Below, piece after piece: positions 32,601-51,458 of a DNA stretch of 64,000 bases; the stretch's first letter is position 1, and each line of letters opens with the position of its first letter. The notes beneath the pieces are model-generated. The model saw only the letters and a list, made by a program, of their open reading frames with translations, did not search any database and was not told the origin of the DNA. The translations under genes and the position numbers were made by a program. Source of the DNA: Fimicolochytrium jonesii (taxonomy: Eukaryota); NCBI RefSeq assembly GCF_025526975.1, contig NW_026515675.1, positions 248,001 to 312,000 of the forward strand. Direction: 5' to 3'.

Positions 32601-35600
32601 GCTCGTATGAGTTGCCAATAAGACATTCGGAGAACTCCATTTGGATTTTCGATACGATCAGTACGGCTTCTCGGCCGAGGCCGACAAGCTCGATTTCCCA
32701 GGAGTCGACGGCGGTCCCGACAACCAGTCGACCCGGTGCCGGACTCTCTTCATGTGGGTTGAACACAATCGGAAGGTTGAATACCTCGTTCGGGAAGAGC
32801 GATACCCGACGCACTGGCCAGTCCTCCCCCTTGAAGAAAGTATCTGTCTCGTGCAATTCGAAGCGCGTCAAATGGAGCATGGCATTTCCCTCGTTCACAA
32901 TTGGCAAGAATGACACGGTGTCCTTGCCAATCATGCAATGCCCAAAGTCGAATCGGCGGTACCTCGATAGCGAGACCTTGGTGTACCCGCCGGCCCCATG
33001 CATTTTGAGACGGATGGGCTGAGAGATGTCCGGTTGGAATACGACATCCTGGTTCTGGATCGACTCGTCCACCGGCTCAAAGGTAAAGCGCACGGTGATT
33101 GTTTGCCCGACTTTGATGTGTCCTCTTGCGGGCAGTATCCGGAGGGAGGCATTCGGGTTGAGGAATTGAAAGTTGAAATCCTTGTGGCCGACGTTCGTGA
33201 AAGTGCGCATAATCGTCTCCGATTCCCCGAGTGGCTGGCGGTGGAAGTCGAGCATTCTTGTGTCGTCACACAGAACAGATATCGCTTTGGGGGTGGCTGT
33301 CAGTGCGATCTCATGAACTGACGCATTGGGCACGCCTGGCTTGATCAGTAACGTGGCCAAAAAAGTGTCTTCAGTAGACAAATCGATCTCAACGGTCAAC
33401 GTGGTTTCGCCATAGCTTGGCAGAGTGCTGATCGGCGGGTCCACCTTCAGGTAAGGTTTGATAAAAGGTAGCGATTGGCTCGACAGCTGGGTGCTTGAGA
33501 TGAGATGGAAGAACATCTGGCGCCGCTTGAAGAACGCCGAGTATTGCGCTGGCAATCCTTTCTTCGGGTTCAACAACACGCTGGTCCCAAGCGAAGCTCC
33601 AACAGCTCCAGCAGGTTTCTGACTGAGGTTCGACGCACTGCCAGTCGCACTGGTTTGACCAGGCGTTGCTGAAAGGGCTTCGTCGGCGGTTGTCAAAGCA
33701 TCGCCGGGAGCCTGCGCCTGCTGCTTAAGCAAGGTCCGGAGCTTTCCAAGCGTGTTTCCCCAGAGAGCGCTCAAAGGGTCTGCGTTTGCATCCATATTTT
33801 CCTCTTCCAAATCTTCCGCTTTTCGGATCATCATGGCAATCATTTGCCACCTATTCTTTGCCGTCAACGTGATGGTCTGAACGTTCCGGTCCGCGCAGAG
33901 TTGCTGCCGAGCCCATCCAGATCTCGGATCCAGGACGGAGTAATTCTCGTCGAACTGCACAAACGAGGAGGAGGTCTCGCTGGAATGACCAACTACTAGC
34001 CATTCAGCCGTAATGCTCGCCGGAATAGACCCGCTATTCACGAGCGTAAGCTTACGGCGATACACATGGTTTGTGGCGATATCACCCATGTTAAGATCGC
34101 CACGATGCGTGATCTGAATCGTTCCTCCTTTGCCTCGCAGAGGAACTACATAAGACCCTCCTTCCGACCTGATTTGGATACTCCCTGCCGCAATCATTGG
34201 TGACCGCGCGACGAACCGCGCAACGACCTCCAAACCAACACCAGGAGCGATCGTAGAGCGAATGTTGGAGAACCAGTTCCAGATGGTGCGCTTGGACGGC
34301 GGAGGGGGTTTGGGAGCACCGGCCATCTTGTGCTGTTCCAGCGGGATGGGATCACCAACGAGTGCCATGACATACTCGTCGTTGTCGACCACGGCTTCCA
34401 TGGATATCTCCACCATTCCGACGTTGAATAAGAAGAAATGCTTCTCCGAGGCACTATTGAAGGGCACCATGCCGAAATCCAGACCGTTCATCGAGACATC
34501 TTTGTCGTCAGCATATACAACTTCCAGTTTCCCGATACCGCCACTGGCGAGCATTTGAAGTCTGAGAGGTTCTTTCTCCCACAACACTTTTATGGTCGTT
34601 GAGAACTTGTTTTCCGACGTGGGGCGAAAGTACACCCGTAGAGGATTTGCTGACCCTGGAGGAATGAAACCCCGCAACGGTTGAACGTCGAATTCGCGAA
34701 TGCTGAACGGCTGCACCAGATAATCGATGCCGAAAGGACCCTCGTTCTTGAGCTGAAGAGTATGTACATGCTCCGATTGAATGGGATGGACGCCGAGATC
34801 GAGCGTACGCATCTCTTCCGAACCGGCGAGCAGTTCTCCGGATTGGCCATACATCATAAGCCTTGGGAAAGCCGCCCGCCCGCAGACATTGATGTCCTCA
34901 AACTGATCCCCGAAATAAACCCGGAATTTGATTTCTGTGTGGGCCTCCGAGAGAGGCGAGAACTCGATGAACAAATCAGTCTTGCCGTATGGTTTGCAAT
35001 GACCATCCGGGTTCATCAACGTGAACCCCTTTGCTGCAAGTTCCTTCACCCACGGTCGGACTTCCTCTTCCGCATCGCCAGAGTCCGCATTGCTAGTTCT
35101 GGGCGCATTCAACCTCTGGCCCAACTCCGAATACACCGACCAGTCTCCATCCTCCGGTTCGGGTCGCAGATGATAGTCCACGCCAAGATTGCCAGCGTTC
35201 GATATAGTAAGAGGCTTTTTGAACGTTCGGCGAATCCTGCACAGTCCGAAATCAATCAGGCTCAATGGCGAGTCAATTTTTAGCACGGCCCGGCCGCCAA
35301 CGCCCTTGATTGGCGCTACTAGGCTCTTGAACTCGTAGTTGAGATTGATCTGACACTCGTACTCTGCCAAGGAGTCAGGGATGAACGTGATGCAGATTTC
35401 GACCGACTCACCGACATGTAAGGAGCCACTGGTGGGCTCGGCGGTTATGATATGTGGCTTTGTCGGGACAGGTCTCAATGCCGCTCTTCCCTCTGAATCA
35501 TGTCCGATCGTCAACTTGTTTTCCAAGTTCAAAATGAATGGCAGGTTGATGTTGCCCTCGTTCGACATCGTGAAGATCTTCTTGTACACCCCGTTGACAG

Positions 35601-38600
35601 CGCATACACCAAAGTCGAGCGACTGCATCGCATCGGGAGGATTGAATGCCAACTTAGGCACACCCACCGACCCTTCCAATGACAAGACAAAGTGATCACC
35701 GCGACTATCAGAGGATCTCAAGAAAGCTTTCGCCTTCAATGTTTCCACGACTTGAGGGACATAGACTATGTTGATGTCTTTGATCGTGTTCGGGCCCACG
35801 ACGACAACCTCGTTCTCCTTATCGTTGTCGAGACTGATGCCCGGGTGATGACAACTGAAGATGACGTGGGCTTCGGCAGCCCCTTTGTTCTGGACCTTTA
35901 CGGGCTGGACATTGCGTGTCATGAACAGCGCCGTGCCGAAATCCACGTTCTTCGTGAGGACAACCAGTTCCGGGTAACTTCCCATCCCGCGTAAGCTCAC
36001 AAGAAGAGGCTCGATTGTGTATCCCTCCTGCATGTGCGGCAGCACTCTCAGGGTTTCGGTAAGCTGGCCCACTGCTTTCGGTGCGAACTTGACCGTAATC
36101 TCCACCGACCCAGCGCCTTCCAGCATCCCCTGCTCGGGATCAGCCGAAAACTGCGTATTACTGCACTCCACAAAGTACCTCAAAGGCAAGATACCGCGGT
36201 TCTTCAACGAGACCCTGAAATGCTTCTTGGTCCCGATCCTCAGTGTCCCAAAGTCCAGCTCATCAACGTCGATCCACAATCGGCTGGAAGCGCCCACTCC
36301 ATGAACCACAATCTGGCTTTCTGCGAAATCGCCCGTGCGGAGCGTGCAGTAGGAGTTGACTTCGTATTGCGCGAGACTGGGAGTGAATGCCACCGCGACG
36401 GATTGGGTGCAGCCCGGGAGGAGTTTGCCAGAGGTCGGGAAGAAGGACATTGGGAGTGGGATTGACTTCTCGTCTTCGGGTAGTGGGGCGGTGTCGAACT
36501 TCTCCATGGGGTGGTACCGGATGGAATCTTGGGTCAGCGTCCATGGCAGTGGAACCGTCCCAGTGTTGGTGAACTTGATGTCGGTTTTCTAAGTAAGGCG
36601 ACGAAGGTCAGATGATAGGACATGCAATGCATCATTCAACTTGGAAACATACATGTCGAATATAAACCGCCCGAACTCCAAAGTCAACTCTCTTCTCCCA
36701 AAGTTGCAATGCCGGCTGTATGTTCCCATGTATCCAGAAAACATATGCCTCGGCCTCGCCGTTCGATCTCTCCACGTCCACCTTCATGACAGCGTTTCGC
36801 TCTCCCTTTTGGCGCTGTAAAAGGAAAACAACCCTTAGTACATTCACTGCGGGTTCCTGCAGGCTCTCATATACATACCACATCAAATCCTGCCAGCGAC
36901 AGCTTGATAATACACTTCTGCGACGCCGGCAACCGGAACGGAAACGCCTTGGACGAAGCCGACGGCCCACCCACCACAGAGGTTGATATCGACTTGTACC
37001 TCCGTCTCCGTACAGGTGCGTTGACACTGGAAGCCGCGACAGACTGCCGTCCAAACCCAGTCCCTCCTGCATGCTCACCGATCTTATGATCAACTTCATC
37101 CCAGTCGATTTCCACGGCGTCAAGCGGCGCATTGCCAAACTCCGACGAAATTTGCGTTTCGAGCAAGATATCCTCCTCGAATTTCCACTGCACGTGGGTC
37201 TCGTCGTCCAATGTGATGTTCTTGACAGAGTAGTCAAACGTACCCACGTTCGTGAGACGGAACATCTTCTCTTTAGGTCGTCCCATCTCGACAAACCCGA
37301 AATCGATCGTGCTCTCCGTCGTTCGGACAGGTTTCTCATCACCAGCAAGAAGTTCAGCAAGCAACGGCCCAGCGGTAACACGCACCGGATTGGCCAGATT
37401 CGACTCAATCCCCGACCTTCCCCCCGTTCCTATAACCGGCACCGGCCTCGTCAACCCCCCAAAAGACAAAACCAGCAACTCACTAAACGTCCCACTCTTC
37501 GTCGGCTCAAACAACACCGGCAGCTCCAGCTTCGTCTGCCTTCTCACCATCGTCCCCGTCAATCCCGACGTGTGGAACGGCGGCGGGGTGGTGATGACCA
37601 AGTGCGTGCTCGACTGCTGGTTGTTGATGATCGTCAGGGGGCGGGAGACCCGCTCGCCGATCTCGACGTCCCCGTGGTGCAGGAACTCGGGCATGAAGGC
37701 GAGATCCTGCACGCCTACCGAGCAATCGAAGACGAGGGGGGGGAGACTGCGTTTGGCGCGGCCGCGCATGTGTTCGGCGTTGACCATGTGGGAGATTGGG
37801 TCGGTGTATTCCATAAAGAGTTTGGCGCGGTAGTCGCCTGATGAGGTTGCTTGGAAGGTGATATCGACCGTGTAGATCTCGAAGGGTTTTAGGTTCATGC
37901 GTGGGACGGAGAGGGAGAAGGGACACCAGTCGGAGCTAGAGGAGGTTGTGGGGACGATCATCGGGAGCCCGTCAGCGCCGAGGCCTGTGCCCTGCTGTCC
38001 GACGGTTACGAGACGGGCTTCCCAAACCACATCGACGGGCGCCCGGTTCCGCAGGATAAATCGCCGGGACAGCTTCTCCATGACTTTCAGCGAGGGATAA
38101 TGCACAGTATCCATCCCCTCCCTGCTTTCCAACGACACCAAATCCCCCAAAATCCCCTGCAATCCGGCACTCACAAGCCCGCCCTTCTTATCATTCGCCT
38201 CAAACGCCGTGATGGATCCCAAAATAATCTGATGCATCGTCTCGGGTCCAATCCCATTTTCCAAGAACGACGGATTGATCCTGATGGGTATATCCACGCT
38301 CGCCGACCCCTCCAACTCCCCTTCCAGCGGCGCATCCGTGTAGAAATGCTCGCTGAGCGCCAGCCGGTACTTCTGCACCGTGCTGCCCAGGTTCGATAAG
38401 GTGACGAACTCGCAGATATCTTCAAACCGGCCGCTGAGATGGGCGCCGAAAATGGTCTGGATGGGTGGGTCTAGTTCGAGCACTTCGGACGATTTGATCA
38501 CGGCGGTCGTTGACGCTCGCCCGCGTTTGGGCATGACGCCCGTGGCGGGTTCCTCCGCCGGATTAGCGATGAATTTCCGCACAGCGTCGAGGGACTTCTC

Positions 38601-41509
38601 CTTCAACAAGAACGGCTCGTCGACCGCGAACGCGTTCAGCTGCAACGTGCCCACCGTCCATTTCCGCGGTTTGGTCATCTGAACGCCTAATGTGCTCTTG
38701 AACGACCCCGACACCACGCTCAGGAAGTTGACTTTGACGAGGACAGTCAGCCGCGGGCCGACGGTCACGGATAGCCCGACGGCGTCGGGACCCTCATAAG
38801 GCCTTGATTCCAACTGCAGCGAGTTAGCGCCCTTCCTATTCGCCACATCCACCGGAACAAGCTCAACGGTAAACGGCGCAAGCGGCGGGGTGAAAACCGT
38901 AAACTGCGTCGGGGTATCCGCGAAATTGACGATCGGGAACTGCACGGAGGTGAACTGCGACACCGACGCGATGGGGAACATCAGGCGTTCGTAAACGGGC
39001 ATCCACAGCGTCGGGCCGGAGAAGGCTGCGGCTTCCAGCGTGACGGGTTTGCTGTTGGGTGCGTGGAAGACCAAGGACTCTTGCCGCGTGCCGGTGAACC
39101 CGGAGAGAAAGGATACGCTGATCCGACGCTCTTCGAAGGGTTCCAGTGTGATTGGCAACCCGTAGTGGACGCTCAGTTCGTTCGTTGAGGCGATGCAGGT
39201 CACGGGTAACGGTTTGCGGTCCCGGTTCCGTAGCGTCATTTTGCGGACGACGGGGTTGTAGTATATATCCGTGGGCCCGAAATCGAGTCTGGTGTCCAGC
39301 ACATGCAGAGCGCGGCCGCCGACGGCTTCCAGTAAGACCTTCGTGAGTTCGCCGCCAAGGGCGACAACAAGTAATGCATCGGAGACTTCTGCCTCAATAT
39401 TGGGCACAAATTTGAGCTGAAAGGATTTTTTCTCGTGGGCGGCGAGGATGGTCTGCGTCGGGTAGATTTGGAACATTGTGCTGGTCTCTGTGGGCGCTAC
39501 GAGGGTGACGATGGGGCATTCGACGGGGAGGAGATTGGAGACCATGAAGACCATGGTGCGGGTGTCGCCGATGGGGCAGATGCCAAAGTCGAGCCTGACG
39601 GGGCTGATTTTGATCGCTGGTGTATTATAGCCGCGCAATGAGATCCTAAAGGAGATGGAGATGAGACGCCATCAATGGAGTCAAACGTCCTCGCCCTTGC
39701 TTATAAGACCATACCTCTCATAAGGAAACCCATTAGCCCCCCTAACCCTCAAAAACCCCAGCACCTCCGGCGTCTTCCTCACAACCTGCGGACACGGCGT
39801 AAAATATACCGTAACGGTAACCGACTCGCCCTTAGGCACAAACCCATATGCCGGGGTGGCAAAGAAGAACCTGCTCGGGCCCACTTGTAAACGAAAGGGG
39901 ACGTCGTGCGTGACGGATTTGTTTTGGAGGAAGATGTCTTTCTGGAAGGGGTATCGGTTGAAGAGGAGGATAGGGGGTGTCATGTTGAGGGTGAGGGTTG
40001 AGGCGTCGGGGTCGGCGGTGGGGGCGTCGTGGATGGTGGTTAGGGTCGGTGTGTGCGGAGGTGGGGATTGAGAGGGGTCTTGCGATGTGGCGCTGGCTTG
40101 ACGGAAAAGGGGTGTGAGTGAGTAGATCTTTCAAGGTAGCGAAATGACGAGCGCGGGGAGAAGCCAACCTGGTACCTTCTTTCCTGCCCGCAGCGGGGAT
40201 GCTCGGCCTCTCAAACATCTTGTCCGACAACAACGCAAACGCCCGGGAGACTTCGTCATACGGCTCCTCTGGCATCTGCTGCTCCATGTCCACTCTCTTG
40301 GACGCCTTCGCAAGTCCCGCAAACGCCTTAACCTGGTCCCTCTGGTAGTTCTGCAAGGACAACAAGTTCCATCTCCGCATAGCGTAGCCCGTCAATTTCG
40401 GCGTCTGACTGGTTGAGGTACCTATGCTCTGGAGCTCTTTATCGTTTGGCCGCGGGTACCACACCGCCCAAAACTGCATGATTTCGCGCTTGACAATGGT
40501 GTGCATGCTTATGTTGGAGGATGTGGCCGGTACTGCGCCGTGTAGGAGGCTAGGCCGGCGAACTTCGGTCGCGGATGTTGAGAGATTGGTCGAGCTGGCT
40601 ATGATTTCCGGTGGTGGGAGGAGTTCGGCGGATAACGCTGCGATGGGTTCGCGGAAAATCTTTTCCACTCGCAGCCGGCTCCTGTTTGTGACTGGGAGAT
40701 GGGTGTGGATGGCGTGGATCGCGGTGGCTTGCATGTACGGATGCGCTTTCTTCCTCAACAGCGTGAGAAGTAGGCGGTCGATGTATCCCATGTAAGAAGA
40801 AGTTTGCGCTTCAGGAGCCCGCAGGAACAGGGCGCTGGCGTGCACGAGACTTATTCGTCGGCGGAACACCTGTGGTGCGACATAGTGAGAGCTGTCAAGC
40901 AATGTCGGGTCCTGATTCAGCGCATCACCGAGTTCCGTCGGAAAGGTGCGTGCAATTTCGCCAATGACGGCTTCAAAGGCTCTCGTCCGTATTTTGGCCG
41001 GGAACCCTTCTTCGCACATTGCTTCGACGAATTCGCCCAGTAGTTGTGCAGCGAGACATCTGTTGTTCCAGGACTTTTAAGACGATTGACTAAGACTTCG
41101 CCAGACATCCACATTCTTTGAACTCATTTGCCATCGCTCATACCTCATCACCGGTCACAATTTCGATGAGCTTCGATACAATCCTCTGCTTTTGCTCTAT
41201 GTGCAGCAGAGTTCTGCCAATTGATCTGGCGCATAGTGATATGTTCTTTAGCCCAAAAAAGCGCAGTGCCGATTCATTTGCATGGAGGTAGGCGCATATC
41301 AAGTCCCAAGCGTGCGCATATTGTGACGAGTATGCGAATGTCTGAATCAAAGGAAACCATTAGTATCTCGATGGATTGTAGTGTGAGCGGTTTTCACTGG
41401 TATTTACAAAGTCCGTCGAAAGCAATATTGCTGCCGCGCGCACAGTCTCAAAGCTGGCATCCTGAACGCTCTCCGATTCGCTCCCATGTGCGGATCCTGT
41501 TCCTGTCAT
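29678..41509 (-). CDS. Giant Hydin-like protein with many tandem ASH/PapD-like Ig domains, roughly 3,600-3,700 aa
   Basis: Co-oriented ORFs of 395, 100, 923, 1827 and 288 aa linked by GT-AG introns. Repeated signature (L/V)DFG-x(8-12)-L-x-N-x-G...F-x-V-x-P-x-x-G-x-L-x-P...V-x-F-x-P...L-x-G-x-G. First exon 41509-41408 splices in frame; stop TGA at 29680-29678. Confidence 0.82.
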
Positions 41510-42280
41510 GTTATGTGGTAATCGTGGTGGTCCCACTGCGATGAGTTCGAGGTGGAATCTCCTCGCCCTCAATGAAGAGTTTCCGAAGAAAAACCAGCTC
41601 GGGGAGTCGTGCGAACAACAGTTCCCCAACTTCGTCCGATAATGCTTTACGCGTCAGACAGACCGCGCTGTCGTATTCGCGGTACCCATGCGAGCACGTG
41701 ACTTTCTAGCATGCTGGTTAAAGTGGGCTTAGATTCGTCCTCCGATTTCCCGGGGCCACATTACACCGACACGTTTGTTGCAGCTGGCGTCGCTTGCATT
41801 TGTGGCGCAGCATACGGAGGCCTTATAGACTTATACTACCAGCTAGCATCTTAAGTCAAGTGCATGACGTAGCGCTGTTGTTATTGGGCAGTGTCATAAT
41901 AAAGGGGCCAATAGGCAACGGCCGGTTTGTGAGTTAAGGCGCGAGTGACTAAGGCCTGGCGTATGCGCTAATTGCTTCATGTGAGAGAGAGAGCGAGAGA
42001 GAGGGGGCGCCTTCCTTGGAGACGAGACGCACGGACAGCGGTGACGCATTCGGCCCCCAGAGAGATTCCGCTTATAACCCGTTGCCCAAACTGCAAACAC
42101 CCCTTAACCCGCATCCTCAATCTTCATCGCTCGCCTCAAGGCCGCCTCATCTCCTCACCCTTCCCCCTTTCTCGCCACTACTAGCACAACGTAAGTCTCA
42201 GGCAAGATCTCTACAGCCACTTACAGACGCGACGACGCCGGAATCCTATCTGATCTTCCTCTTTTCACAGACACACAAAT

Positions 42281-43702
42281 ATGTCGGTCCCTATCGCCAT
42301 CCCGGTTCCTCTCAAGTTCAACGTGCCTCCGGCTTTCTCTGACATTGGAAAGACCACAAATGACCTGCTAAGCAAGGACTTCCCCGTCGGGGCAGCTAAG
42401 CTCGAGGTCAACACGGTTACAACGAACGGTGTGGTACGTAAAACATTAACGGACAACATACCAGAAGACGGCTGTGGGGGCGATTGTGACGTATCATGGC
42501 GAACCGAGGCGCAAGACTGCTAAAGGGTGGGACGGAGCGTATGCGACGTATCAGGGCGAAAGCGGGTTGTTCAGCCGGATTCGAAGTTTGCCGCACCAAG
42601 GGTGCAGCGGCGGCGGAGGGGCCTGAACGGTCGATGACAACGGAAGACGCCTTACTATGTTGGGTGTGGCCGCGGTCGCCCTACCACGACGATTGTCAAA
42701 GAAGTTGAAAGATTGAGCAGGCCATTGACTCTCTGTTCCCCCCTTTGTACAGAAATTCACCGTTTTGGGAGCCAAGGACAACAAGACTGGCGCTATCGCC
42801 AGCGAGCTGAAGGCCAAGCACATCGACAAGGCCCGTGGTATTACATTCACCGAGTCCTGGACGAGCAGCAACATTCTCGGCACCCAGCTCGAGCTTGACA
42901 ACACCCTTGCCCGTGGCCTGAAGGTCGACATTGCCGCATCCCTCCTCCCCGCCAAGGGAACCAAGAACCTGAAGGCCGGTGTGGAATACAAGCAGGACCA
43001 CCTCTTCACCCGCACGTCCGTCGACCTTTTCCGGGGTCCCACCCTTCACGGAGATGCCGTCGTCGCGTGAGTACTGCAAAGAGTTGCTACCAGTTTCACA
43101 TGGCACATTTGACTGATCTGTCGTCAATCTTTCAGAAACGACGGTTTCTTGGCCGGAGGAGAGGTTGCATACGACGTGTCCGATGCCCGCGTCACCAAGT
43201 ACAACTTGGCTTTCGGTTACCTCGGCCGCGAGTACTCCGTTGCCCTTCACGCGTAAGTTGCAGATTACTCTTGTGGTCCATCTGTGGCATCCGTCTCATC
43301 CCTCCTATCTCTCTATGGAATAGCACCAACGCCCTGAGCACCTTCGCCGCGTCCTACTTCCACCGTGTCAACGCCGACGTCGAGGCCGGTGCCAAGGCAA
43401 CATGGGTCAAGTCCCTCGACAATACCGTCCACGTCGAGGTTGGAACCAAGTACTTCCTTGACAACGACGCATCCCTCAAGGTAAGGCGCCATTTTCACCC
43501 ATTCTCCCATCCATACTCGCATACACTAATTCTTCCTTTTTTAATCACCTAGGCCAAGGTTGACAACCGCGGACTGTTGGGTCTCGGCTACACCCAGATC
43601 CTGCGCCGTGGCGTTAAGCTCTCCCTGGGCGGTCTCTTTGACACCACCCGCTTCCACGAGAACGTGCACAAGCTTGGTCTCGCCCTTACCCTTGAAGCTT
43701 AA
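42281..43702 (+). CDS. POR1: Mitochondrial outer-membrane porin (VDAC), 4 introns
   Basis: VPPAFSDIGKTTNDLLSKDF, GITFTESW, ASYFHRVNADVEAG, KAKVDNRGLLGLGYTQ, HKLGLALTLEA*. Confidence 0.96.
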
Positions 43703-45220
43703 GCGGACTGTCTCACATCTTATATCACATGATTCAATTGTATATCTTGTGTGTGTTGCGGTGTCTGTTTTCCTCTCACTGTTGATCTTCTCAACAACCG
43801 TTGGCATCCCCACTCTCTCTCTCTCTATCTTCATGACAAAAACGTAATTAAATATACAAAACATTGCATATCATTTGGTACCGATGGAAGTGGTGAGACG
43901 TTGGAAGGCTCGTTGACGCAGGTGACGCTCGAGTGCAAAGTTCGGAACGCGCGAGTGGGTGTTCGACCTGGAGTAGAGCAAGCTTTCCAAAGGCCCGTTG
44001 GCTGCAAGACCTTCTCAGATGACTTTTGCTGCAGGGTCTAAACGACGAATGCTTGGAAGCTATCATATGTGGGGAATGAGTAAGCTTGCGAGCGTTGGAT
44101 GCGGCGTACACGGTATGAGAAGTGGACACACAGTAGCTGCCCGAAAAGGGCATTGGCTGGACAGTGACCGTCAGCTGAGAATTGCATCCGCGGCGGCGTC
44201 CTTCGACACGAGACTCATCATAGTGTAAGACACGGGGAATCCTTCATGTTCCTTCAGGGCCGCACAAATGTACCTCGTTCGCAAAGGGTCAACATTCGTC
44301 GGCGGCCCCACTACGGACCACTCCTAATAGCAATGGATTTCCCTTACACAGGAGGTAAGGTTTTTCCCGACCGCACAAAACCTTGAACCACCAGGTCCAA
44401 CTTCGGCGGTGAGGCTGTGGTGGGAAGGTGAGGGATACCTCAACGATGCAGCGTTATCGGGTGTCTCCAACCGTCCCAAAGTCCAGGAGGACATTTATTA
44501 TGCACATCCTCAAATCCCGCAATGGGAATGGCCAAAGTCTAGGCCCTGCACCGGGTCGACGGACTCCGGATCAGGGGCAGCGAGAATAGGCCCTTTTTGG
44601 TTGTCCTTTGACTCGTTTCCTAATGTCTAAATGTGGAAATGGAGGCCGACCCGGGGTTTATCCTGCAAACATGTTGGATCTGGATATTGGGTTAGCTGAA
44701 GCCGTCCCGTCGGTATTTCCCACGCTGTCCCGCACACACGGCGAGACGGCGCTCACCTAGGCGCCTGCCACTCCGAACGGAAGGTGGAGGGCGAATGCTG
44801 CCGGAACATGTACGAGCGAACAACGTAACCCACACCCACATACTGTGCCCCTCACAGTTCCCGCACCGGCAGCCGTTGGCACCTGCACGTTGGACTCGCA
44901 CTCACTGGAGTATCGCCTTGTCACAGCGCCGCTTCGTTCAGCAATCGGCTGCCGACCGGACCTTCGAAAGCTCTCCACTCGGGGCTAACCAGAAAGAGGC
45001 TTCGTAGTTGAATTGCCTCCTTGGAGTAAGCTCGCTCTATTGGCAGCTCAATCTCTCAGCGTCGAACCGGGTGACGCTAAAGTAGCGGACCAATCGACAA
45101 ATCTCTGCGAGGGAAGCTCCCACAGGACTGTGCTGTTGGCCATTTACCGCTCGAACTTGGAAGACAGATACGCCGTTGGACTCTCTGAGAGGTATAGGGC
45201 AAAGGACTGGCTCTTCTCCG

Positions 45221-47882
45221 ATGCTGCGACCTCTGCGGTCGTCGCAACGGCTACCGTCGTTTTGGAGCTGCCTGGCAGCGAGTGCAATATGTTCACTCTG
45301 GAGTTGCCTTCCCGGTCATGCGGCCCGTACGGAAGGTACCGTATCTGGGCCCACTCCCCACGGCGAGGGTGGGAACACCAGCTGATTGAATTTTTTGTGC
45401 TTTGCTTAGTTGCGGTGCTGGTAAAGCCATTGTTCGACACCTCTGCCACGGACGAGCTTGCTCTGTATACACAGTTGACACAACAGTTCCAAAAGGATAC
45501 CGGCATTGCTATTACAGTGTCTATGGGTGTGACGGTAAGCGTATTGGGTGTTGCGTTACCTGCGTCCTCAGCGAACCACACTTCTGAAAGCCTTCATCTC
45601 TATAGTTCAGTGCCGATCCAGCAGCCTATTACCAAACCGCGAAAAAGTACATTGAGGATCATAACGATGTTTACGATATCATCGCATTGGATCAATCATG
45701 GCTCGACACCTGGCCAGGAAATAAGTACTTCGTAAACCTTTTCAAGGACGAGATCAGTGGAACGAACTCCAACATGACGGATTTATTTGCCTCTCGTGTT
45801 TTAAACGACGAGAATGAGGCAACGACGGAAGCGGACTCCTCGCCTGATGGCTTAAGTATGTGCACCACGGCATCCTAACGGTTGGTTATAGTCTCACAAC
45901 GCTTACCGAGCTCTTCCCCTACGCAGTGGCGATACCACTCTGGAACGACTTCTCTGCATTGTTCGCGCGAAGCGACTTACTCACCAAGTATAACATAAGC
46001 ATCCCCATTTCTTACCAACAAATGGTGGAAGCGTGTCAAAAGATTCTACCGGCGGAGCAAGTGAATCGGCGCTCTTTGCAGTGTTTCGTGTCTGGCATGA
46101 TAGGTAAGTGTGTTTTCCCCCAGCGATGCGTTTCCGCAGGAGAAGTTTATTGACAGCCCCATTTCAGGTCAGGAAGTGGTGGATTTCATGGGCGAGCTTG
46201 TTTACAACAACAACACCACTCCCTTGATAAACTTCCCACAAACGCCGACCTTTGACACAGGGAAGAATGCTGCAATGTTGAATCAATTCAGGTCTTGGAT
46301 CGTAGACTCGCACTTCATGACGGAACGTTCAATGCAGTACGACTATGGAACCGCACTGAACATATGGACCCTCGGCGACTCCGTATTCTATCGAGGGAAA
46401 TTCTCCTCTCTGCACCAGACATATACCCAATGGCAAGGGAAAGGATGGGTCCCGGCGGTGATACCGGGGAATAGTCCGAATGCGGAGACGCAAATGTACT
46501 CGACGCCTGGTGGGTATCACCTCGCGATGACGAAACATGGAGAAAACAAGAACGATAGCGCTGTCGCGGAAGCCTTACTCTTCTTGACTGGGCCTGTCGT
46601 ACAGAAGGAACGAGCGCTTCGTTTTGGGGCACCTCCTAGTCTCAAATCATTATCCGCAGGTATAGATTCGTTCCCTCGTTGTGCCTTTGTTGTTTGAAAC
46701 CTTGCTGATATCACGTTTCTTCCGTTGATAGACCCGGTGACATGCCAGGCTACGAATTGCACCATCACCCCATTCCTGATCGATAAGACATCGTCCCCCA
46801 ATGCAGCACCTTTGTGGGTCGAGGCCTCCGCAGCAATGGCCCCTTGGTTTACGAAGATTTTCGACGGGACGGTGGATCCAAAAACCGGCCTGGCAAGCGC
46901 AAAGATTGCGGTCCTCGACGTATTTAGTGGGGCGGACTCGGGTCTTTCCACCAAAGCGGTGATTCTTCTGGCGGTCCTCATCCCAATCGCAGCAGTCGCC
47001 CTCTTGGTAGGAGGGTTCCTTCTATACAGGAAGAGGCGGATACGAAACAGTGAGAGAGAGCGGAAAATCGAAGACTTTGAAATTGCGGCGAATGCAGGTT
47101 CGGGGACACCGGAAATGTCGCAGACGACGACCTCCGATGCTACGCGTATGAACTTCTCAACACGGCCCGCTCGCTCGGCGCGGGACCCGGCGAAGCCTGC
47201 CGATCTGAACCAGCGCGTGATGGACGCCAAAACAGCGGGCGCGACCGCAGCCGCAGCAGGCGCCGGGATTGTCGCAATTTCCACATCACCAAGCGACGCG
47301 GAGAACCACACCAGCGACTTGCCAAATCGTGGAAGGGACGGTGAAATCATGACCGGTGACGAATCCAGCGGCCACGTCCGGGGTCGCGGCGGGAACCGCA
47401 CGTCGTCCAGCGACATGGTCCAACGGTTCACAGTTATCCACCCTTACAAACCAAAACTGGCGGACGAGATTGAGCTCAAACCAGGCGACGTTGTATCGGT
47501 CCGTCTCGCCTACGACGACGGCTACGCATTCGGGCAGAACGACCGAGCTTACGCGGCCGGTGTGTTCCCGCTGGCATGTCTCCTACCCGTCGGCATGGAA
47601 CTCGGGCTCCCCTCGCGGCTGGAATCCGGCGCATCTAACGTGCAAGCCATGCAACACGCGCCGGAGAAAGTGGACTCGCTGGAGATGTTGCTGCTGAGCG
47701 GGAAGATCACGGAGGGCACGTATCTTGCTTTGAGGAGAGAGCAGGAGGACGAGATGAGGACGCAGCGGCAGATTGCGGCGCTCAGGGAGCGGTTGGCTGC
47801 TCCGAATCTGGAGGAGGCTGAGAGGAAGAAGTTGCAGAAGCGGTTGGATGAGATTGAATTGGGGATTGATGATGATGATTAG
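45221..47882 (+). CDS. Single-pass receptor-like protein: signal peptide, sugar solute-binding domain (PBP type 2), TM, SH3, SHOCT-like/coiled-coil tail (769 aa)
   Basis: Five GT-AG introns (45336-45409, 45535-45605, 45856-45926, 46104-46167, 46660-46731) give one frame of 770 codons. SBP motifs FQKDTGIAITV, YDIIALDQSWL, AIPLWNDFSALFARSDLLTKYNI..P.SYQQMVEACQKI, TPGGYHLAM, LLFLTGPVVQKERA..GAPP. TM VILLAVLIPIAAVALLVGGFLLY followed by RKRR. SH3 FTVIHPYKPKLADEIELKPGD...DDGYAFG...GVFPLACL. Confidence 0.85.
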
Positions 47883-48468
47883 ACGTTCGCGGACTTTACC
47901 AACACCACAATCAAAGCGCTTTCCGCCAGTCAACTCCACCCCGCTTTGCGTCTCCTGAAGCTAAGCACCTTCCCCGCTTTCCCTCTCATCCCTCCCATCC
48001 CCCTCTCTCTGCAACATATACCCTCACCCTCCAGTAGTTTCTTTTTATATATAACTGCCACTCGTCTCCCTACCCGTCCTTCATACGTTTTTGTTATTGT
48101 ACCTTCCATACATCATCATCTAATATCTGCACAACACCAGGTTTTTTTTTGCTGTTTATGGGACCAAAGGCATTGTGTCGGATCTACTGCCTATCCACGC
48201 GTTTCCATTGTCCAATGTCCATGGTCGCGGGCGGTTGGCGTTCGTCAGTTGCGAATATGATGAGGAGTCAATGGGCGAGCGGCCGCAAATTTGACGCCTG
48301 CGGGAGGATCATTGCGCGGCCGCATTCGACAGGCAGCTGTGAACTCCCTCTCGCGGCAACAGCCTCCTCCTGCAGAAAACTAAACCCTCTCTTGTTGGAC
48401 AGCTGCACCCTGACGACCCCACTGGAGATAGATAGAGCATAGCCAGAGAGACGGCACAGGTATTGCAA

Positions 48469-50586
48469 ATGGGCCTTTCAACAGGAGTGATTGCTGCTAT
48501 CGCAGTCGTTCTGGGCTTGCTGGTCGCCGCAGTCGCCCTCGCCCTATACCGTCGCCGCAAAACTCAACTTGGAAGCAAACCTCGTTCGCTCTCTGCTGTG
48601 GAGCAGGGAAATGGCAGGAGTACACCGCTGGGACCCGTCCGACGGTCTGTGAGTTGGAAGGCTGTGGAGAAGGATGCCCAAGTGAAAATAAGCACCACCC
48701 AAGCACCTGTCGCACCTGCGGTCGATGTGACCACTTCAGCGCCCTCGACAAATTCCAGCGAGATGCCCAATTGCAGCACCACCAACCTCCTCAGTTCCGC
48801 TGCCGTCCACGCCGGAACCGAGTCTAATTCTACTCCCCTCGAAAACCGACCAACGTCACCGACGGTCGAACCAAAGACGCCTGAACCTGCCACCCCCCAA
48901 ACTCCCGAACCACAAACATCAAAGACGCCCGAACCCCCAACTTCGGATTCCCCACAACCGCCTCGCTCGGTGAAATCCAGGACAAACAGCCAGAAGACTC
49001 TGCGATCGGACGTGGACATTCCTGGCCGGTCGACTAGTCATACTGCAAGTAAGGAGGATGAGGTGCAAGTCCCCAGTTTGAAGGGGATGGTTGCTGCCGG
49101 ACACTGGTTCAAGCGATCAAAAGCTGATGAAGTTGCTGTTAAAGTCGGGGTAAGTGAAGTGGCGGCAAGAATGCGAGAAATCATTCTTCGAGAGGATCGG
49201 TCAGCTCATCCTATCAATCTGCAGGACGCCATCACAGTCTACACAGTCTACAAAGACGCCTGGTGCTTCGCAATGAATTGGAGTTCTGGCCAATCCGGAG
49301 TCATGCCCGTCGCAGTCGTATCTCTCGACGAAGCGACAAATCTCTTGCAAAGATTCCCGCCCGTGTCCGAAGACCTTCTCCCGCCCGGTGACGCTGTTAC
49401 CCCTCCACCAGCAAGCAAAGCCAATCCACCACGCAGATCCACCGACAGCCACCGCGCGGTGGTGGTGTCACCCCAGCGTTCTGAGCGGTCCGAGCTCAAC
49501 CGATCGTCGTCTCTTCTGTACAGCTCGCCACCGATTGCCCGACCTGCCCCGCTGCCCTCCGTCGCATCCTCTGCCATGTCGAGTCATTGGGGCGCGCAAG
49601 GTGTGCGTGGGACCGACAGAAAGTTGTACAAATTCCCTTCTCAGCAGTTCAGATCGACGGTCTCGTTGATCGACAACCAGCAATCACCATCGCAGAAGTC
49701 TCCGTACCATATGGCGGGGAACAAGCAGTACCGACCGGATTTCCTCCGGAGTGCGGACAGCTTGCTACCTAACAACAGAGGGATGCCGATGACGCGAGCT
49801 GTTGCCTCAAATGCACCGGGGACGCCAGAGTCGGGAATCTCAAGTCTCGCTGCGAGTTACTTTGCCGCCATCTCCCAGCTCGAAGAAAACGACGCAGACG
49901 AAGCCGCCGCAAAGCAGCTACAAGCCACAGCATCCGACCTTGCCGAATCCGTCACCGCAATCTCAGACCTGCAGTCCGACAGCGGCAGCAAAGACCCCGG
50001 AGCACAGCGGAGGGCACGGCAGCTTGTCACAGAAATTAAACGCATCTCCCAACCCAGCGTACGACGAGACGAGCGCCGAAAATCCATCGTCGAGTTGAGA
50101 TCCGAGCTGGAAAAATTCTTCGACGACGTGTTCATCGATGCTGCGACGACGGCTGGCGGGCCTCCTCCGCCGCTTCCGGAGATCCCGGCTGTGTACAGGC
50201 AGGAGACCGCGCTGGTTACGCCTTCACCCGCCCCGCCGGAGCCCCTCGCTCTGCTCCCGCGGCCAACATCGACATCACCTCCCCCGGCCCAAGACCTCTC
50301 ACAAGCAAACGAGACCGCGCCAACATACCCAACAACAGAAGACGACGATACACCCCTCTCCCAACTTGCTCCATCTGTCCTCCCCCCTCGGACACCGTCA
50401 CCATCCCTCACACCCCCTCCCCCGTCCTCGTCCCCGCGCTCCGTCTCCCCGCATCAACGGAACCCGTCGGATGAATCAACAGGCTCGGTGGTTGTGAATC
50501 ATGCGGTGCGGCAGGGGAGCAGTATGGATACGTTTAGACGGTCGGCGTCGTCCGCGTCGCCTGTTAGTACTGAGAGTACATTGTAG
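48469..50586 (+). CDS. N-terminally anchored membrane protein with divergent SH3 and proline-rich regions (about 680 aa)
   Basis: Signal-anchor GVIAAIAVVLGLLVAAVALALY followed by RRRK. Removing the in-frame intron 49150-49224 (GTAAGT...CTGCAG) gives the SH3-like AAGHWFKRSKADEVAVKVGDAITVYTVYKDAWCFAMNWSSGQSGVMPVAVV. Many PxxP motifs. Confidence 0.78.
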   Translation: MGLSTGVIAAIAVVLGLLVAAVALALYRRRKTQLGSKPRSLSAVEQGNGRSTPLGPVRRSVSWKAVEKDAQVKISTTQAPVAPAVDVTTSAPSTNSSEMPNCSTTNLLSSAAVHAGTESNSTPLENRPTSPTVEPKTPEPATPQTPEPQTSKTPEPPTSDSPQPPRSVKSRTNSQKTLRSDVDIPGRSTSHTASKEDEVQVPSLKGMVAAGHWFKRSKADEVAVKVGVSEVAARMREIILREDRSAHPINLQDAITVYTVYKDAWCFAMNWSSGQSGVMPVAVVSLDEATNLLQRFPPVSEDLLPPGDAVTPPPASKANPPRRSTDSHRAVVVSPQRSERSELNRSSSLLYSSPPIARPAPLPSVASSAMSSHWGAQGVRGTDRKLYKFPSQQFRSTVSLIDNQQSPSQKSPYHMAGNKQYRPDFLRSADSLLPNNRGMPMTRAVASNAPGTPESGISSLAASYFAAISQLEENDADEAAAKQLQATASDLAESVTAISDLQSDSGSKDPGAQRRARQLVTEIKRISQPSVRRDERRKSIVELRSELEKFFDDVFIDAATTAGGPPPPLPEIPAVYRQETALVTPSPAPPEPLALLPRPTSTSPPPAQDLSQANETAPTYPTTEDDDTPLSQLAPSVLPPRTPSPSLTPPPPSSSPRSVSPHQRNPSDESTGSVVVNHAVRQGSSMDTFRRSASSASPVSTESTL

Positions 50587-51245
50587 AGAGACGCACCGCT
50601 CTACAGTCATCTATAAATCCCCCTGCATGTTCCAAAAATTTCGGCGTACAACACTTTGAGGGAAATTGTTTTGACACACACTATAGAGATAGATAGGTCA
50701 TACCGTAGATAGATTCATTTGATAAATGTACAGAATTTGTTTCATCAAAAGTGTTCGACATTGATAATATTGACTTTTCGACTCGCTTCATGCTCGTACG
50801 AGGAAGGACATCTCGAATGTGGGAGGATATACGATCGTGTCTCCCAGTAATGGCCGTACGACATGGACCTGCCTTTGCGAATCACTATCGCCTATTGTAA
50901 TTTCACTGAAGATGCCTTCACCTTGACTAGCCCCCACGAGCATTCTGTCCATCAGTAACGGAAACGCATTCCGCTCTGTGTGCCATTGGCCTCAACCACG
51001 TCATTTCGGCCATTGGACGGATCGGCCCTGCCCATCTGTTATGGACAAGGACTACCGGGACAATGACCCTACCCTTCACATTCAAGACTCTAGATAGATG
51101 GACCGAACGGTGATTGAATAAAGCTTCCGGGATATGCACCCGCTTCTCAAATTCCTAGGGCCCTCCTTGCGTTGCTCAATAACAGCAAGAGGATTTAACA
51201 GAGGATCAGACACGGACCTACCCTCCTCCTCCCATCTGGGGCTCG

Positions 51246-51458
51246 TGTCTCGGGTAACATTACCAACCACGAAATGCACACGTACTGTACCTCTCCGTAC
51301 CTTTCAAGAAGTGTCTTCATGACTAGCTGCTTCAAGAATAATGAGTGTACTCATGTCTCGGGTGAAATTACCAACCACGAAATGCGCACGTACCCCACGG
51401 ACCTTCCAAAAAGTGTCTTCATGGCTACTGTAGCTGCTTTCAGGAATACTGAGTGCAC
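51246..51458. repeat. Diverged tandem duplication, 2 copies, period 108 bp
   Basis: Both copies (51246, 51354) contain TGTCTCGGGT, ATTACCAACCACGAAATGC, AAGTGTCTTCATG and TAGCTGCTT. Confidence 0.85.

What the first reader, a model, noticed from the sequence alone, without database searches (positions are those of the whole stretch)
45221..50586. Tandem TM-SH3 pair: possible two-gene receptor plus membrane-adaptor module
Seen: about 590 bp downstream and co-oriented lies a second single-pass TM-SH3 gene with almost no ectodomain and many PxxP motifs (GPPPPLPEIP, RPAPLP, PPRTPSP). The two SH3s deviate in different positions: the receptor has DDGY where Trp is usual, while the second keeps W but has AGHWF in place of ALYDY. 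Inference: the receptor SH3 could dock on the neighbour's proline motifs, in a LAT- or Sho1-like scaffold arrangement. Alternatively the pair arose by duplication with ectodomain gain or loss.
Basis: inference. Interest (0 to 1): 0.7.

Follow-up and report, generated by a model that had tools for sequence, protein, structure and literature searches.

The report
Chytrid sugar-receptor beside SH3 membrane adaptor
Two neighbouring chytrid-fungus genes encode a predicted sugar-sensing membrane receptor and a predicted membrane adaptor that apparently stay loosely linked in related genera, but both SH3 domains have lost half or more of the usual proline-binding residues, so they probably read a different, arginine-serine motif and the proposed proline docking is unlikely.

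Summary
In detail: two co-oriented single-pass TM-SH3 genes lie 586 bp apart in the chytrid Fimicolochytrium jonesii. Gene 1 has a bacterial-type sugar-binding ectodomain (closest solved relatives bind alpha-glucosides), an SH3 and a highly conserved helical tail; 15 relatives were found, all 14 named ones in chytrids. Gene 2 belongs to a separate old family with an N-terminal membrane anchor, an SH3 and, in its six long members, a predicted four-helix bundle followed by one conserved proline motif. Accession numbers place the two 1, 2, 4 and 15 gene models apart in four genera, so the linkage is old but loose; no background-synteny control was possible. Proline docking is not supported: the receptor SH3 keeps 2 of 6 canonical pocket residues and has the Fus1-type Cys54; 14 of 17 PxxP sites are lost in orthologues; the linked Geranomyces copy is annotated without the proline tail. 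Both families instead keep an R-x-x-S motif just upstream of their own SH3, resembling the non-proline ligand of yeast Fus1. Most likely: a sugar receptor and an adaptor with self-latched SH3s in an inherited neighbourhood. A real two-gene module by motif exchange stays open (about 0.2).

The parts
45221..47882 (+). Gene 1, receptor: exons 45221-45335, 45410-45534, 45606-45855, 45927-46103, 46168-46659, 46732-47882; 769 aa
   Evidence: Open spliced frame, GT-AG introns; exons 2-6 equal the annotated protein P0001 and orthologue tblastn hits start at 45409. Exon 1 is my model; the annotation has a different, longer N-terminus.
45221..45335 (+). Predicted signal peptide (first exon)
   Evidence: 42 residues before the conserved xKPL start, hydropathy peak 1.83, like 31-46 residues and 1.1-2.9 in five orthologues; inferred, no signal-peptide predictor run
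45335..46931 (+). Extracellular solute-binding domain (SBP_bac_1 type), residues 39-453, six N-glycosylation sequons
   Evidence: Pfam SBP_bac_1 E 6e-5 in P0001, down to 5e-17 in orthologues; family profile matches alpha-glycoside-binding protein 6jaz/6j9w at E 6e-34 over about 390 residues; sequons
46959..47030 (+). Transmembrane helix of gene 1, followed by basic residues
   Evidence: Hydropathy peak 2.96
47397..47411 (+). R-x-S-S motif just upstream of the receptor SH3 (candidate cis ligand or kinase site)
   Evidence: Rx[ST]S within 25 aa upstream in 11 of 16 receptors, shuffle mean 1.7, max 7
47424..47588 (+). Receptor SH3 with H8, Y10, Y36, A37, P51, C54
   Evidence: (Z 11.3, rmsd 1.6, 60 aligned to POSH SH3-4)
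47670..47867 (+). Conserved helical tail (short helix plus two long helices), no family match
   Evidence: 76% mean identity to 12 orthologues; pLDDT 85-91; no Pfam match below E 0.3
47883..48468 (.). 586-bp intergenic stretch
   Evidence: sequence
48469..50586 (+). Gene 2, membrane adaptor: exons 48469-49149 and 49225-50586; 680 aa
   Evidence: same as annotated P0017
48481..48552 (+). N-terminal signal-anchor helix, predicted N-out/C-in
   Evidence: Hydropathy 3.02, net charge 0 before and +6 after
49027..49041 (+). R187-x-x-S190 motif upstream of gene 2's SH3
   Evidence: R and S invariant in 16 of 16 aligned family members; local pLDDT 70 against 35 before and 52 after
49084..49326 (+). 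SH3 of gene 2 (split by the intron) with H8, F10, W36, C37, P51, V54
49825..50154 (+). Predicted four-helix bundle, residues 428-537
   Evidence: pLDDT 85-93; only generic bundle matches, best Z 10.5; last-helix signature in 6 of 16 family members
50161..50187 (+). The one conserved proline motif (PPLPEIP), right after the bundle
   Evidence: Both prolines of the sites at 542 and 545 kept in 4 of 4 long orthologues; 14 of the 17 sites kept in none

Best explanation
Gene 1 is likely a single-pass sugar receptor and gene 2 likely a membrane-anchored adaptor, from two old chytrid families that share only a non-canonical SH3 predicted to bind an R-x-x-S-hydrophobic motif rather than PxxP, and their closeness is probably an inherited neighbourhood rather than a maintained two-gene module. 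Proposed working: a sugar closes the two-lobed ectodomain (inferred from the fold class); the change passes through the TM helix and the conserved helical tail, probably by altering oligomer state (inferred); the SH3 is released from, or regulated by phosphorylation of, the R-x-S-S motif just upstream of it and then binds a like motif in an effector (inferred by analogy to yeast Fus1). Gene 2's SH3 is probably latched on its own upstream motif in the same way, while its helix bundle and single conserved proline motif recruit other partners (inferred). Shown here: gene structures, domains, conservation patterns and accession-level linkage. Not shown: ligand, binding, expression, function.
For: Canonical SH3 surface = Y/F8, Y/F10, W36, P51, N53, Y/F54 (PMC5823434 introduction); receptor keeps 2 of 6 with Y36 and C54 in 13 of 13, gene 2 keeps 3 of 6. 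Fus1 has Cys at 37 and 54 and binds non-PxxP R[ST][ST]SL / Rx[ST]SL peptides (passages of PMC5823434 and PMC5417721); receptor has C54, gene 2 has C37. A cis motif accompanies such SH3s: R and S invariant in 16 of 16 gene-2 members, regex 14 of 16 against shuffle mean 1.1, with raised pLDDT in the model; in 30 other SH3 proteins, taking one domain each, 15 of 19 Cys54 domains but 0 of 4 Tyr/Phe54 domains have Rx[ST]S-hydrophobic within 35 aa downstream. The families are distinct: 31% SH3 identity, partner ranks 56 of 63 and 20 of 63 among non-family SH3s, separate branches, profile match limited to 67 SH3 columns. Linkage is loose: offsets 1, 2, 4, 4 and 15; in P. arcticum another TM-SH3 gene follows the receptor directly (P0009); Rhizophlyctis rosea has the two on different contigs of 215 and 166 kb. 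Ectodomain; the Asp70 equivalent, tied to lobe closure in PMC7949145, is D or E in 13 of 13.
Against: Linkage survives in 4 of 4 Spizellomycetales-type genera where both genes sit on contigs over 150 kb, and I had no control for background synteny, so selection on the pair is not excluded. The strict Fus1 form Rx[ST]S-hydrophobic is met in only 2 of 16 gene-2 members and 3 of 16 receptors, and neither window protein has the hydrophobic residue in its upstream motif; the wider pattern was chosen after seeing the data. In 10 of 16 receptors the motif reads RxRx[ST]S, which is also an AGC-kinase consensus (recalled). The Cys54/motif association rests largely on one multi-SH3 family, so its p-value (0.008) overstates independence. 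The raised pLDDT does not show where the motif sits. Two sugar-pocket positions of the closest solved relative (W248, R356) are not kept, so the ligand may differ. No Fus1 sequence was compared directly.
Confidence: 0.55

Rival explanations
1. True two-gene module through a non-proline contact: the activated receptor SH3 captures gene 2's R-x-x-S-L motif and frees gene 2's SH3 (motif exchange), or the receptor's helical tail packs on gene 2's four-helix bundle.
For: Linkage in four genera; both proteins would sit in one membrane with compatible SH3 type and motifs; the short Geranomyces copy keeps TM, motif and SH3; the window's gene 2 also has an exact Fus1-type RSSSL at 320-324.
Against: Spacing varies from 1 to 15 gene models; different contigs in R. 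rosea; the motif is found in cis throughout chytrid SH3 proteins, so no partner gene is needed; the R of RSSSL 320-324 is not kept in most orthologues and the stretch is disordered in the model.
Confidence: 0.2
2. One reading: the receptor SH3 docks on gene 2's PxxP motifs in a LAT- or Sho1-like scaffold.
For: One proline motif (PPLPEIP) is kept in 4 of 4 long orthologues; His8 and Tyr36 are still aromatic; linkage is old.
Against: Only 2 of 6 canonical surface residues; the conserved motif has no class I/II flanking Arg/Lys; it is missing from 9 of the 10 short family members while the receptor SH3 is unchanged, and from the linked Geranomyces annotation.
Confidence: 0.07
3. The two genes are direct sister products of one tandem duplication with ectodomain gain or loss.
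For: Same orientation, similar juxtamembrane GLST start; a tree holding both SH3 groups together is not rejected (p-AU 0.286); a third TM-SH3 gene follows the receptor in P. arcticum, as from an old array.
Against: Both families occur across several chytrid orders, so any duplication is very old; the best tree separates them and other SH3s are closer to each; gene 2's SH3 carries an intron, gene 1's does not.
Confidence: 0.12
4. Gene 1 is not a signalling receptor but a membrane-tethered sugar catcher that feeds a transporter, with the SH3 and tail used for sorting or endocytosis.
For: This role was proposed for TM-tethered type II SBPs of gut fungi (PMC5168858 passages).
Against: The cytoplasmic SH3 (69%), post-SH3 segment (83%) and tail (76%) are far more conserved than the ectodomain (36%), as expected of a fixed intracellular output.
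Confidence: 0.12

Closest known systems
Yeast Fus1 (single-pass membrane protein with a non-PxxP SH3)
   Same: SH3 surface deviates from canonical, Cys at 54 (receptor) or 37 (gene 2); R-x-x-S motifs resemble its ligand consensus R[ST][ST]SL. Single-pass topology of Fus1 is recalled.
   Different: Receptor has Tyr at 36 and a folded sugar-binding ectodomain and helical tail; the motif lies in cis; the strict consensus is met in few members; no direct sequence comparison with Fus1 was made.
TM-tethered type II SBPs and SBP-bearing class C GPCRs of zoosporic fungi (PMC5168858, PMC3251606)
   Same: Bacterial-type sugar-binding domain related to Thermus and Thermococcus trehalose/maltose binders, displayed on the fungal membrane.
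   Different: One TM helix instead of seven, and a cytoplasmic SH3 plus conserved tail; 'SH3' does not occur in the main text of PMC5168858.
Thermus thermophilus alpha-glycoside-binding protein (PDB 6j9w series), T. litoralis trehalose/maltose-binding protein (1eu8), SmoF (7nbz)
   Same: Whole-domain profile match, E 6e-34 to 3e-28; D70, W73, D118, G286 positions kept.
   Different: W287 is Tyr in 11 of 13; W248 and R356 are not kept; fused to a eukaryotic membrane protein rather than serving an ABC importer.
LAT-type transmembrane adaptors (recalled)
   Same: Gene 2: few extracellular residues, N-terminal anchor, long disordered tail with short motifs.
   Different: Has its own SH3 and a predicted helix bundle; no tyrosine-motif/SH2 logic was tested; no homology implied.
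Yeast Sho1
   Same: Membrane protein with a cytoplasmic SH3.
   Different: Sho1 has four TM segments (PMC4411306 abstract start) and a PxxP-binding SH3 (recalled); both genes here have one TM segment and a degenerate pocket.

Membership tests
Canonical PxxP-binding SH3 | SH3 fold | tested here: met
   Both genes:
Canonical PxxP-binding SH3 | Surface residues Y/F8, Y/F10, W36, P51, N53, Y/F54 | tested here: not met
   Receptor 2 of 6 (H, Y, Y, P, A, C); gene 2 3 of 6 (H, F, W, P, A, V)
Canonical PxxP-binding SH3 | Binding to a PxxP peptide | not testable with these tools
   Needs a binding assay
Fus1-type non-PxxP SH3 | Cys at positions 37 and 54 | tested here: inconclusive
   Receptor A37/C54 (13 of 13); gene 2 C37/V54; each has one of the two
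Fus1-type non-PxxP SH3 | Binds R[ST][ST]SL / Rx[ST]SL peptides | not testable with these tools
   Only indirect: cis motifs enriched; strict form in 2 of 16 and 3 of 16
Fus1 orthologues | Sequence orthology to Fus1 | not tested
   No Fus1 sequence was returned by any search
Sugar-binding SBP (SBP_bac_1, type II) | Whole-domain homology | tested here: met
   Pfam SBP_bac_1 in 8 of 12 rows scanned, one row being the tail only; PDB profile E 6e-34
Sugar-binding SBP (SBP_bac_1, type II) | Alpha-glucoside pocket residues kept | tested here: inconclusive
   D70, D118, G286 kept, W287 to Tyr, W248 and R356 lost; roles other than D70 are recalled or inferred from PDB variants
SBP-bearing class C GPCR | Seven TM helices | tested here: not met
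   One TM segment after the ectodomain
Sho1 | Four TM helices | tested here: not met
   One TM segment in each gene
LAT-type transmembrane adaptor | Minimal ectodomain with N-terminal anchor | tested here: met
   TM starts within 19 residues in 14 of 16 members; one starts at 64, one is a partial record
LAT-type transmembrane adaptor | Phosphotyrosine docking sites for SH2 proteins (recalled) | not tested
   Not examined
SHOCT domain (receptor tail, resemblance recalled) | Pfam SHOCT match | tested here: inconclusive
   Not listed; a 30-residue model is easily missed
FAT / GIT1_C four-helix bundle (gene 2) | Specific structural or sequence match | tested here: inconclusive
   One GIT1_C row at TM 0.60 under the Atlas bar; generic bundles tie at Z 9-10.5
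Conserved two-gene module | Linkage kept across genomes | tested here: met
   Offsets 1, 2, 4, 4, 15 on contigs of equal listed length in four genera; loosely, and not in R. rosea
Conserved two-gene module | Linkage above background synteny | not testable with these tools
   No chytrid genome was available to search
Conserved two-gene module | Co-expression and physical interaction | not testable with these tools
   Needs RNA data and binding assays

The most novel reading that the evidence does not exclude
Chytrids built a single-pass sugar receptor by joining a bacterial ABC-importer binding domain to a Fus1-type SH3, and it signals by motif exchange with the linked adaptor: each SH3 is latched on its own R-x-x-S motif until sugar binding lets the receptor SH3 take the adaptor's motif. 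That would be a kinase-free, G-protein-free sensing module for zoospore or rhizoid nutrient sensing, and would make the cis latch a general switch of the large chytrid TM-SH3 class.
Probability: 0.18. Interest if true: 0.78.

Novelty: new variant of a known kind. Interest (0 to 1): 0.45.

Why it matters
Chytrid zoospores respond to sugars (titles and abstract starts), and gut-fungal SBP proteins were proposed to guide zoospores by an unknown mechanism (PMC5168858 passage). A conserved SBP-TM-SH3-tail protein gives a concrete, testable candidate with a defined intracellular output. The pairing of Cys54 SH3 domains with a nearby R-x-S-S-hydrophobic motif in the same chain predicts a simple autoinhibition rule for many uncharacterised fungal membrane proteins. 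I did not find this architecture or the cis motif described in the listings of ten full-text searches; subscription journals, bioRxiv supplements and the primary Fus1 paper were out of reach, and no supplements were opened. The pair itself matters only if the linkage beats background synteny.

Tried and rejected
No whole genome is held for this window, so family size and synteny of flanking genes could not be measured. No RNA holder was listed; no evidence either way. A whole-length word search with gene 2 found only itself among 7,988 scored candidates; the HMMER search of all representatives found the family, and the region search missed several known members, so absence from it means nothing. 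The metagenome scan gave 2 loci of 92 candidates: one unrelated TM-SH3 gene and one off-frame chance match. Atlas feature searches gave only sub-0.9 leads to fungal SH3 proteins for the whole of gene 2 and none for the bundle. No family was found for the receptor tail (the fold search was filled by the SH3) or the gene-2 bundle. The upstream genes fused to orthologues in annotation (CorA, amidase) have no match in this window. Paper search for the S. punctatus locus tags: 0 papers. Four look-ups of earlier findings returned nothing on this locus. Rejected: gene 2 as a truncated gene lacking an upstream exon (the family starts at the anchor); the annotated 917-aa N-terminus of gene 1 (190 residues before the domain against 31-46 in five orthologues, though three other annotations also have 77-125).


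Full report
Observation. The region holds two co-oriented genes. Gene 1 splices into a 769-aa open frame over six exons and gene 2 into 680 aa over two, with 586 bp between them. Protein searches name the source as the chytrid Fimicolochytrium jonesii, Spizellomycetales, with consecutive accessions KAI8822041 and KAI8822042. An SH3 profile finds only these two SH3 domains in the 64-kb window. The quoted motifs are present, except that RPAPLP is not PxxP; the 17 true PxxP sites compare with 10.0 in shuffles of the same proline-rich tail (p 0.009).

Gene 1. The order is predicted signal peptide, solute-binding domain, TM helix, variable linker, SH3, helical tail. A search limited to 670-2000-aa proteins returned 16 of 7,995 scored candidates: the window's own, 14 named chytrid proteins from ten genera and one unnamed. 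Three of these are annotation fusions with neighbouring genes and were left out of the 13-row alignment. Mean identity to the window's protein is 36% in the ectodomain, 20% in the linker, 69% in the SH3, 83% just after it and 76% in the tail. The family profile matches the Thermus alpha-glycoside-binding protein series at E 6e-34, then SmoF and the Thermococcus trehalose/maltose-binding protein. D70, D118 and G286 positions are kept (13, 13 and 12 of 13, one D70 being Glu), W287 is Tyr in 11 of 13, and W248 and R356 are not kept. Asp70's role in lobe closure comes from a passage of PMC7949145; the roles of the others are recalled or inferred from the PDB variants seen. A sugar-like ligand is likely, its identity open. 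The model of the last 158 residues has a confident SH3 and a confident helical tail with no fixed relation (pTM 0.39).

Gene 2. HMMER over 1.84 billion representatives gave 50 hits. I assigned 15 of them, plus one, to the gene-2 family by their SH3 signature; the 16 form one side of a branch in the SH3 tree (89/65; 98/88 with one extra row). Named members span Spizellomyces, Gaertneriomyces, Thoreauomyces, Geranomyces, P. arcticum, Rhizophlyctis, Borealophlyctis, Nowakowskiella, Polychytrium, Blyttiomyces, Dinochytrium and a Lobulomycetales MAG. The anchor starts within 19 residues in 14 of 16, so the missing ectodomain is a family trait. Six long members share a C-terminal block predicted as a four-helix bundle (pLDDT 85-93; signature), directly followed by the only conserved proline motif: 2 overlapping sites kept in 4 of 4 long orthologues examined, 1 site in 1 of 4, and 14 in none. 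Ten members are short and lack the bundle as annotated.

Linkage. This rests on accession numbers and equal listed contig lengths, not on DNA. Receptor and gene-2 member lie 1 apart in F. jonesii, 2 in Spizellomyces sp. 'palustris' (g04834, g04832), 4 in two Geranomyces variabilis strains (3717/3713 and 5492/5496) and 15 in P. arcticum (KAI9103699, KAI9103714). NCBI files P. arcticum under Chytridiales; its placement with Spizellomycetales is recalled and fits its SH3 grouping. Rhizophlyctis rosea has them on different contigs of 215 and 166 kb. Gaertneriomyces, Thoreauomyces and Borealophlyctis also show different contigs, but with one partner on 5, 43 or 12 kb, which tells little. No gene-2 member was found for Powellomyces. 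Strands are unknown outside the window. In P. arcticum a different TM-SH3 gene follows the receptor directly and is fused to it in the annotation. The neighbourhood is therefore old but not tight; whether it exceeds background synteny could not be tested.

The SH3 pockets. The canonical surface is Y/F8, Y/F10, W36, P51, N53, Y/F54 (PMC5823434 introduction, part 1 read). The receptor has H, Y, Y, P, A, C; positions 8, 10, 36, 51 and 54 are invariant in 13 of 13. Gene 2 has H, F, W, P, A, V, and positions 8 and 54 vary freely in its family. Yeast Fus1 has Cys at 37 and 54, binds peptides without PxxP, and gains PxxP affinity when reverted (PMC5823434 passages); its consensus is R[ST][ST]SL, widened to Rx[ST]SL (PMC5417721 passages). 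Gene-2 members keep R-x-x-S upstream of their own SH3 (aligned R and S in 16 of 16; pattern in 14 of 16 against 1.1 in shuffles), and this stretch stands out in the model. Receptors keep Rx[ST]S within 25 residues upstream in 11 of 16 (shuffles 1.7). In the other hits, 70 of 99 SH3 domains with enough downstream sequence have Rx[ST]S-hydrophobic within 35 residues (shuffles 0.8; first domain per protein 13 of 30), and the motif goes with Cys54 (59 of 66) rather than Tyr/Phe54 (1 of 9); one domain per protein gives 15 of 19 against 0 of 4 (13 of 111 domains unusable). Against this: the strict Fus1 form is met in only 2 of 16 and 3 of 16, both window proteins lack the hydrophobic residue in the upstream motif, the looser pattern was chosen after inspection, many domains come from one repeat family, and RxRx[ST]S (10 of 16 receptors) is also a kinase consensus (recalled).

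Origin. The two SH3s are 31% identical; each ranks the other 56th and 20th of 63 non-family domains, a profile comparison aligns only the SH3, and the best tree of 94 domains (55 columns, at most two domains per multi-SH3 protein, five near-duplicate records left out) separates them. A tree joining them is not rejected (p-AU 0.286). A recent duplication is excluded by the spread of both families; an ancient one is not.

Comparison and novelty. Membrane-tethered type II SBPs related to the same Thermus and Thermococcus proteins, and SBP-bearing class C GPCRs, are described in zoosporic fungi (passages of PMC5168858 and PMC3251606); PMC11291939 passages mention only an SBP_bac_3 transfer. PMC4466140 passages confirm conserved Fus1 specificity among yeasts. 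Other papers were seen only as listings with abstract starts. Ten searches showed no description of an SBP-TM-SH3 receptor or of the cis motif. The receptor is a new variant of a known kind; gene 2 works like a LAT-type adaptor in layout only.

Verdict. Observation confirmed; interpretation partly supported. Best reading (0.55): sugar receptor and adaptor with non-PxxP, probably self-latched SH3s in an inherited neighbourhood. Module by motif exchange 0.2, PxxP docking 0.07. Interest 0.45, carried more by the receptor family and the motif rule than by the pair.

Noticed in passing
P0022-P0028, P0030, P0034, P0040, P0041, P0043, P0046 (one search hits; P0022 named Chytriomyces hyalinus): Single-pass chytrid proteins with up to ten SH3 repeats, nearly each followed 12-27 residues later by an R-x-S-S-hydrophobic motif: a repeat unit of SH3 plus its putative own ligand.
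   Followed up: partly
P0009 residues about 740-1673 (P. arcticum): A third TM-SH3 gene directly downstream of the receptor, fused to it in the annotation; it has an exact RxxRTSSI Fus1-type motif and is not in the gene-2 clade. No counterpart in this window.
   Followed up: partly
window 44249-45409: The public 917-aa model of gene 1 uses extra upstream sequence and reads through my intron 1; a signal-peptide-like first exon at 45221 fits orthologues better.
   Followed up: partly
P0063 / P0072 (Geranomyces variabilis): The linked gene-2 member is only 238-240 aa, has Tyr at SH3 position 36 like the receptor, and the two strains' models end in different frames, so the short form may be an annotation matter.
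   Followed up: no
P0006 and P0007 (Thoreauomyces humboldtii): Two receptor paralogues in one species; P0006 lacks the upstream RTSS-type motif.
   Followed up: no
window 42254-43702 (+): Mitochondrial porin (VDAC) gene is the upstream neighbour (Pfam Porin_3 E 2e-17).
   Followed up: partly
window about 31024-41076 (-): Very large gene with HYDIN/CFAP65-type Ig repeats, a ciliary protein as expected in a flagellated fungus.
   Followed up: partly
window 23952-26081 (-) and 5659-7860 (+): A HAM1-like gene; and a membrane protein with hydrophobic ends and no Pfam match in the exon scanned.
   Followed up: no
L001:100-1257: Metagenomic single-pass protein with a Cys-rich ectodomain, a Cys54 SH3 and an RSSS stretch after it.
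   Followed up: no
window 51195-51440: Two similar copies of a stretch of about 80 bases, roughly 120 bases apart, downstream of gene 2 (seen); not analysed.
   Followed up: no
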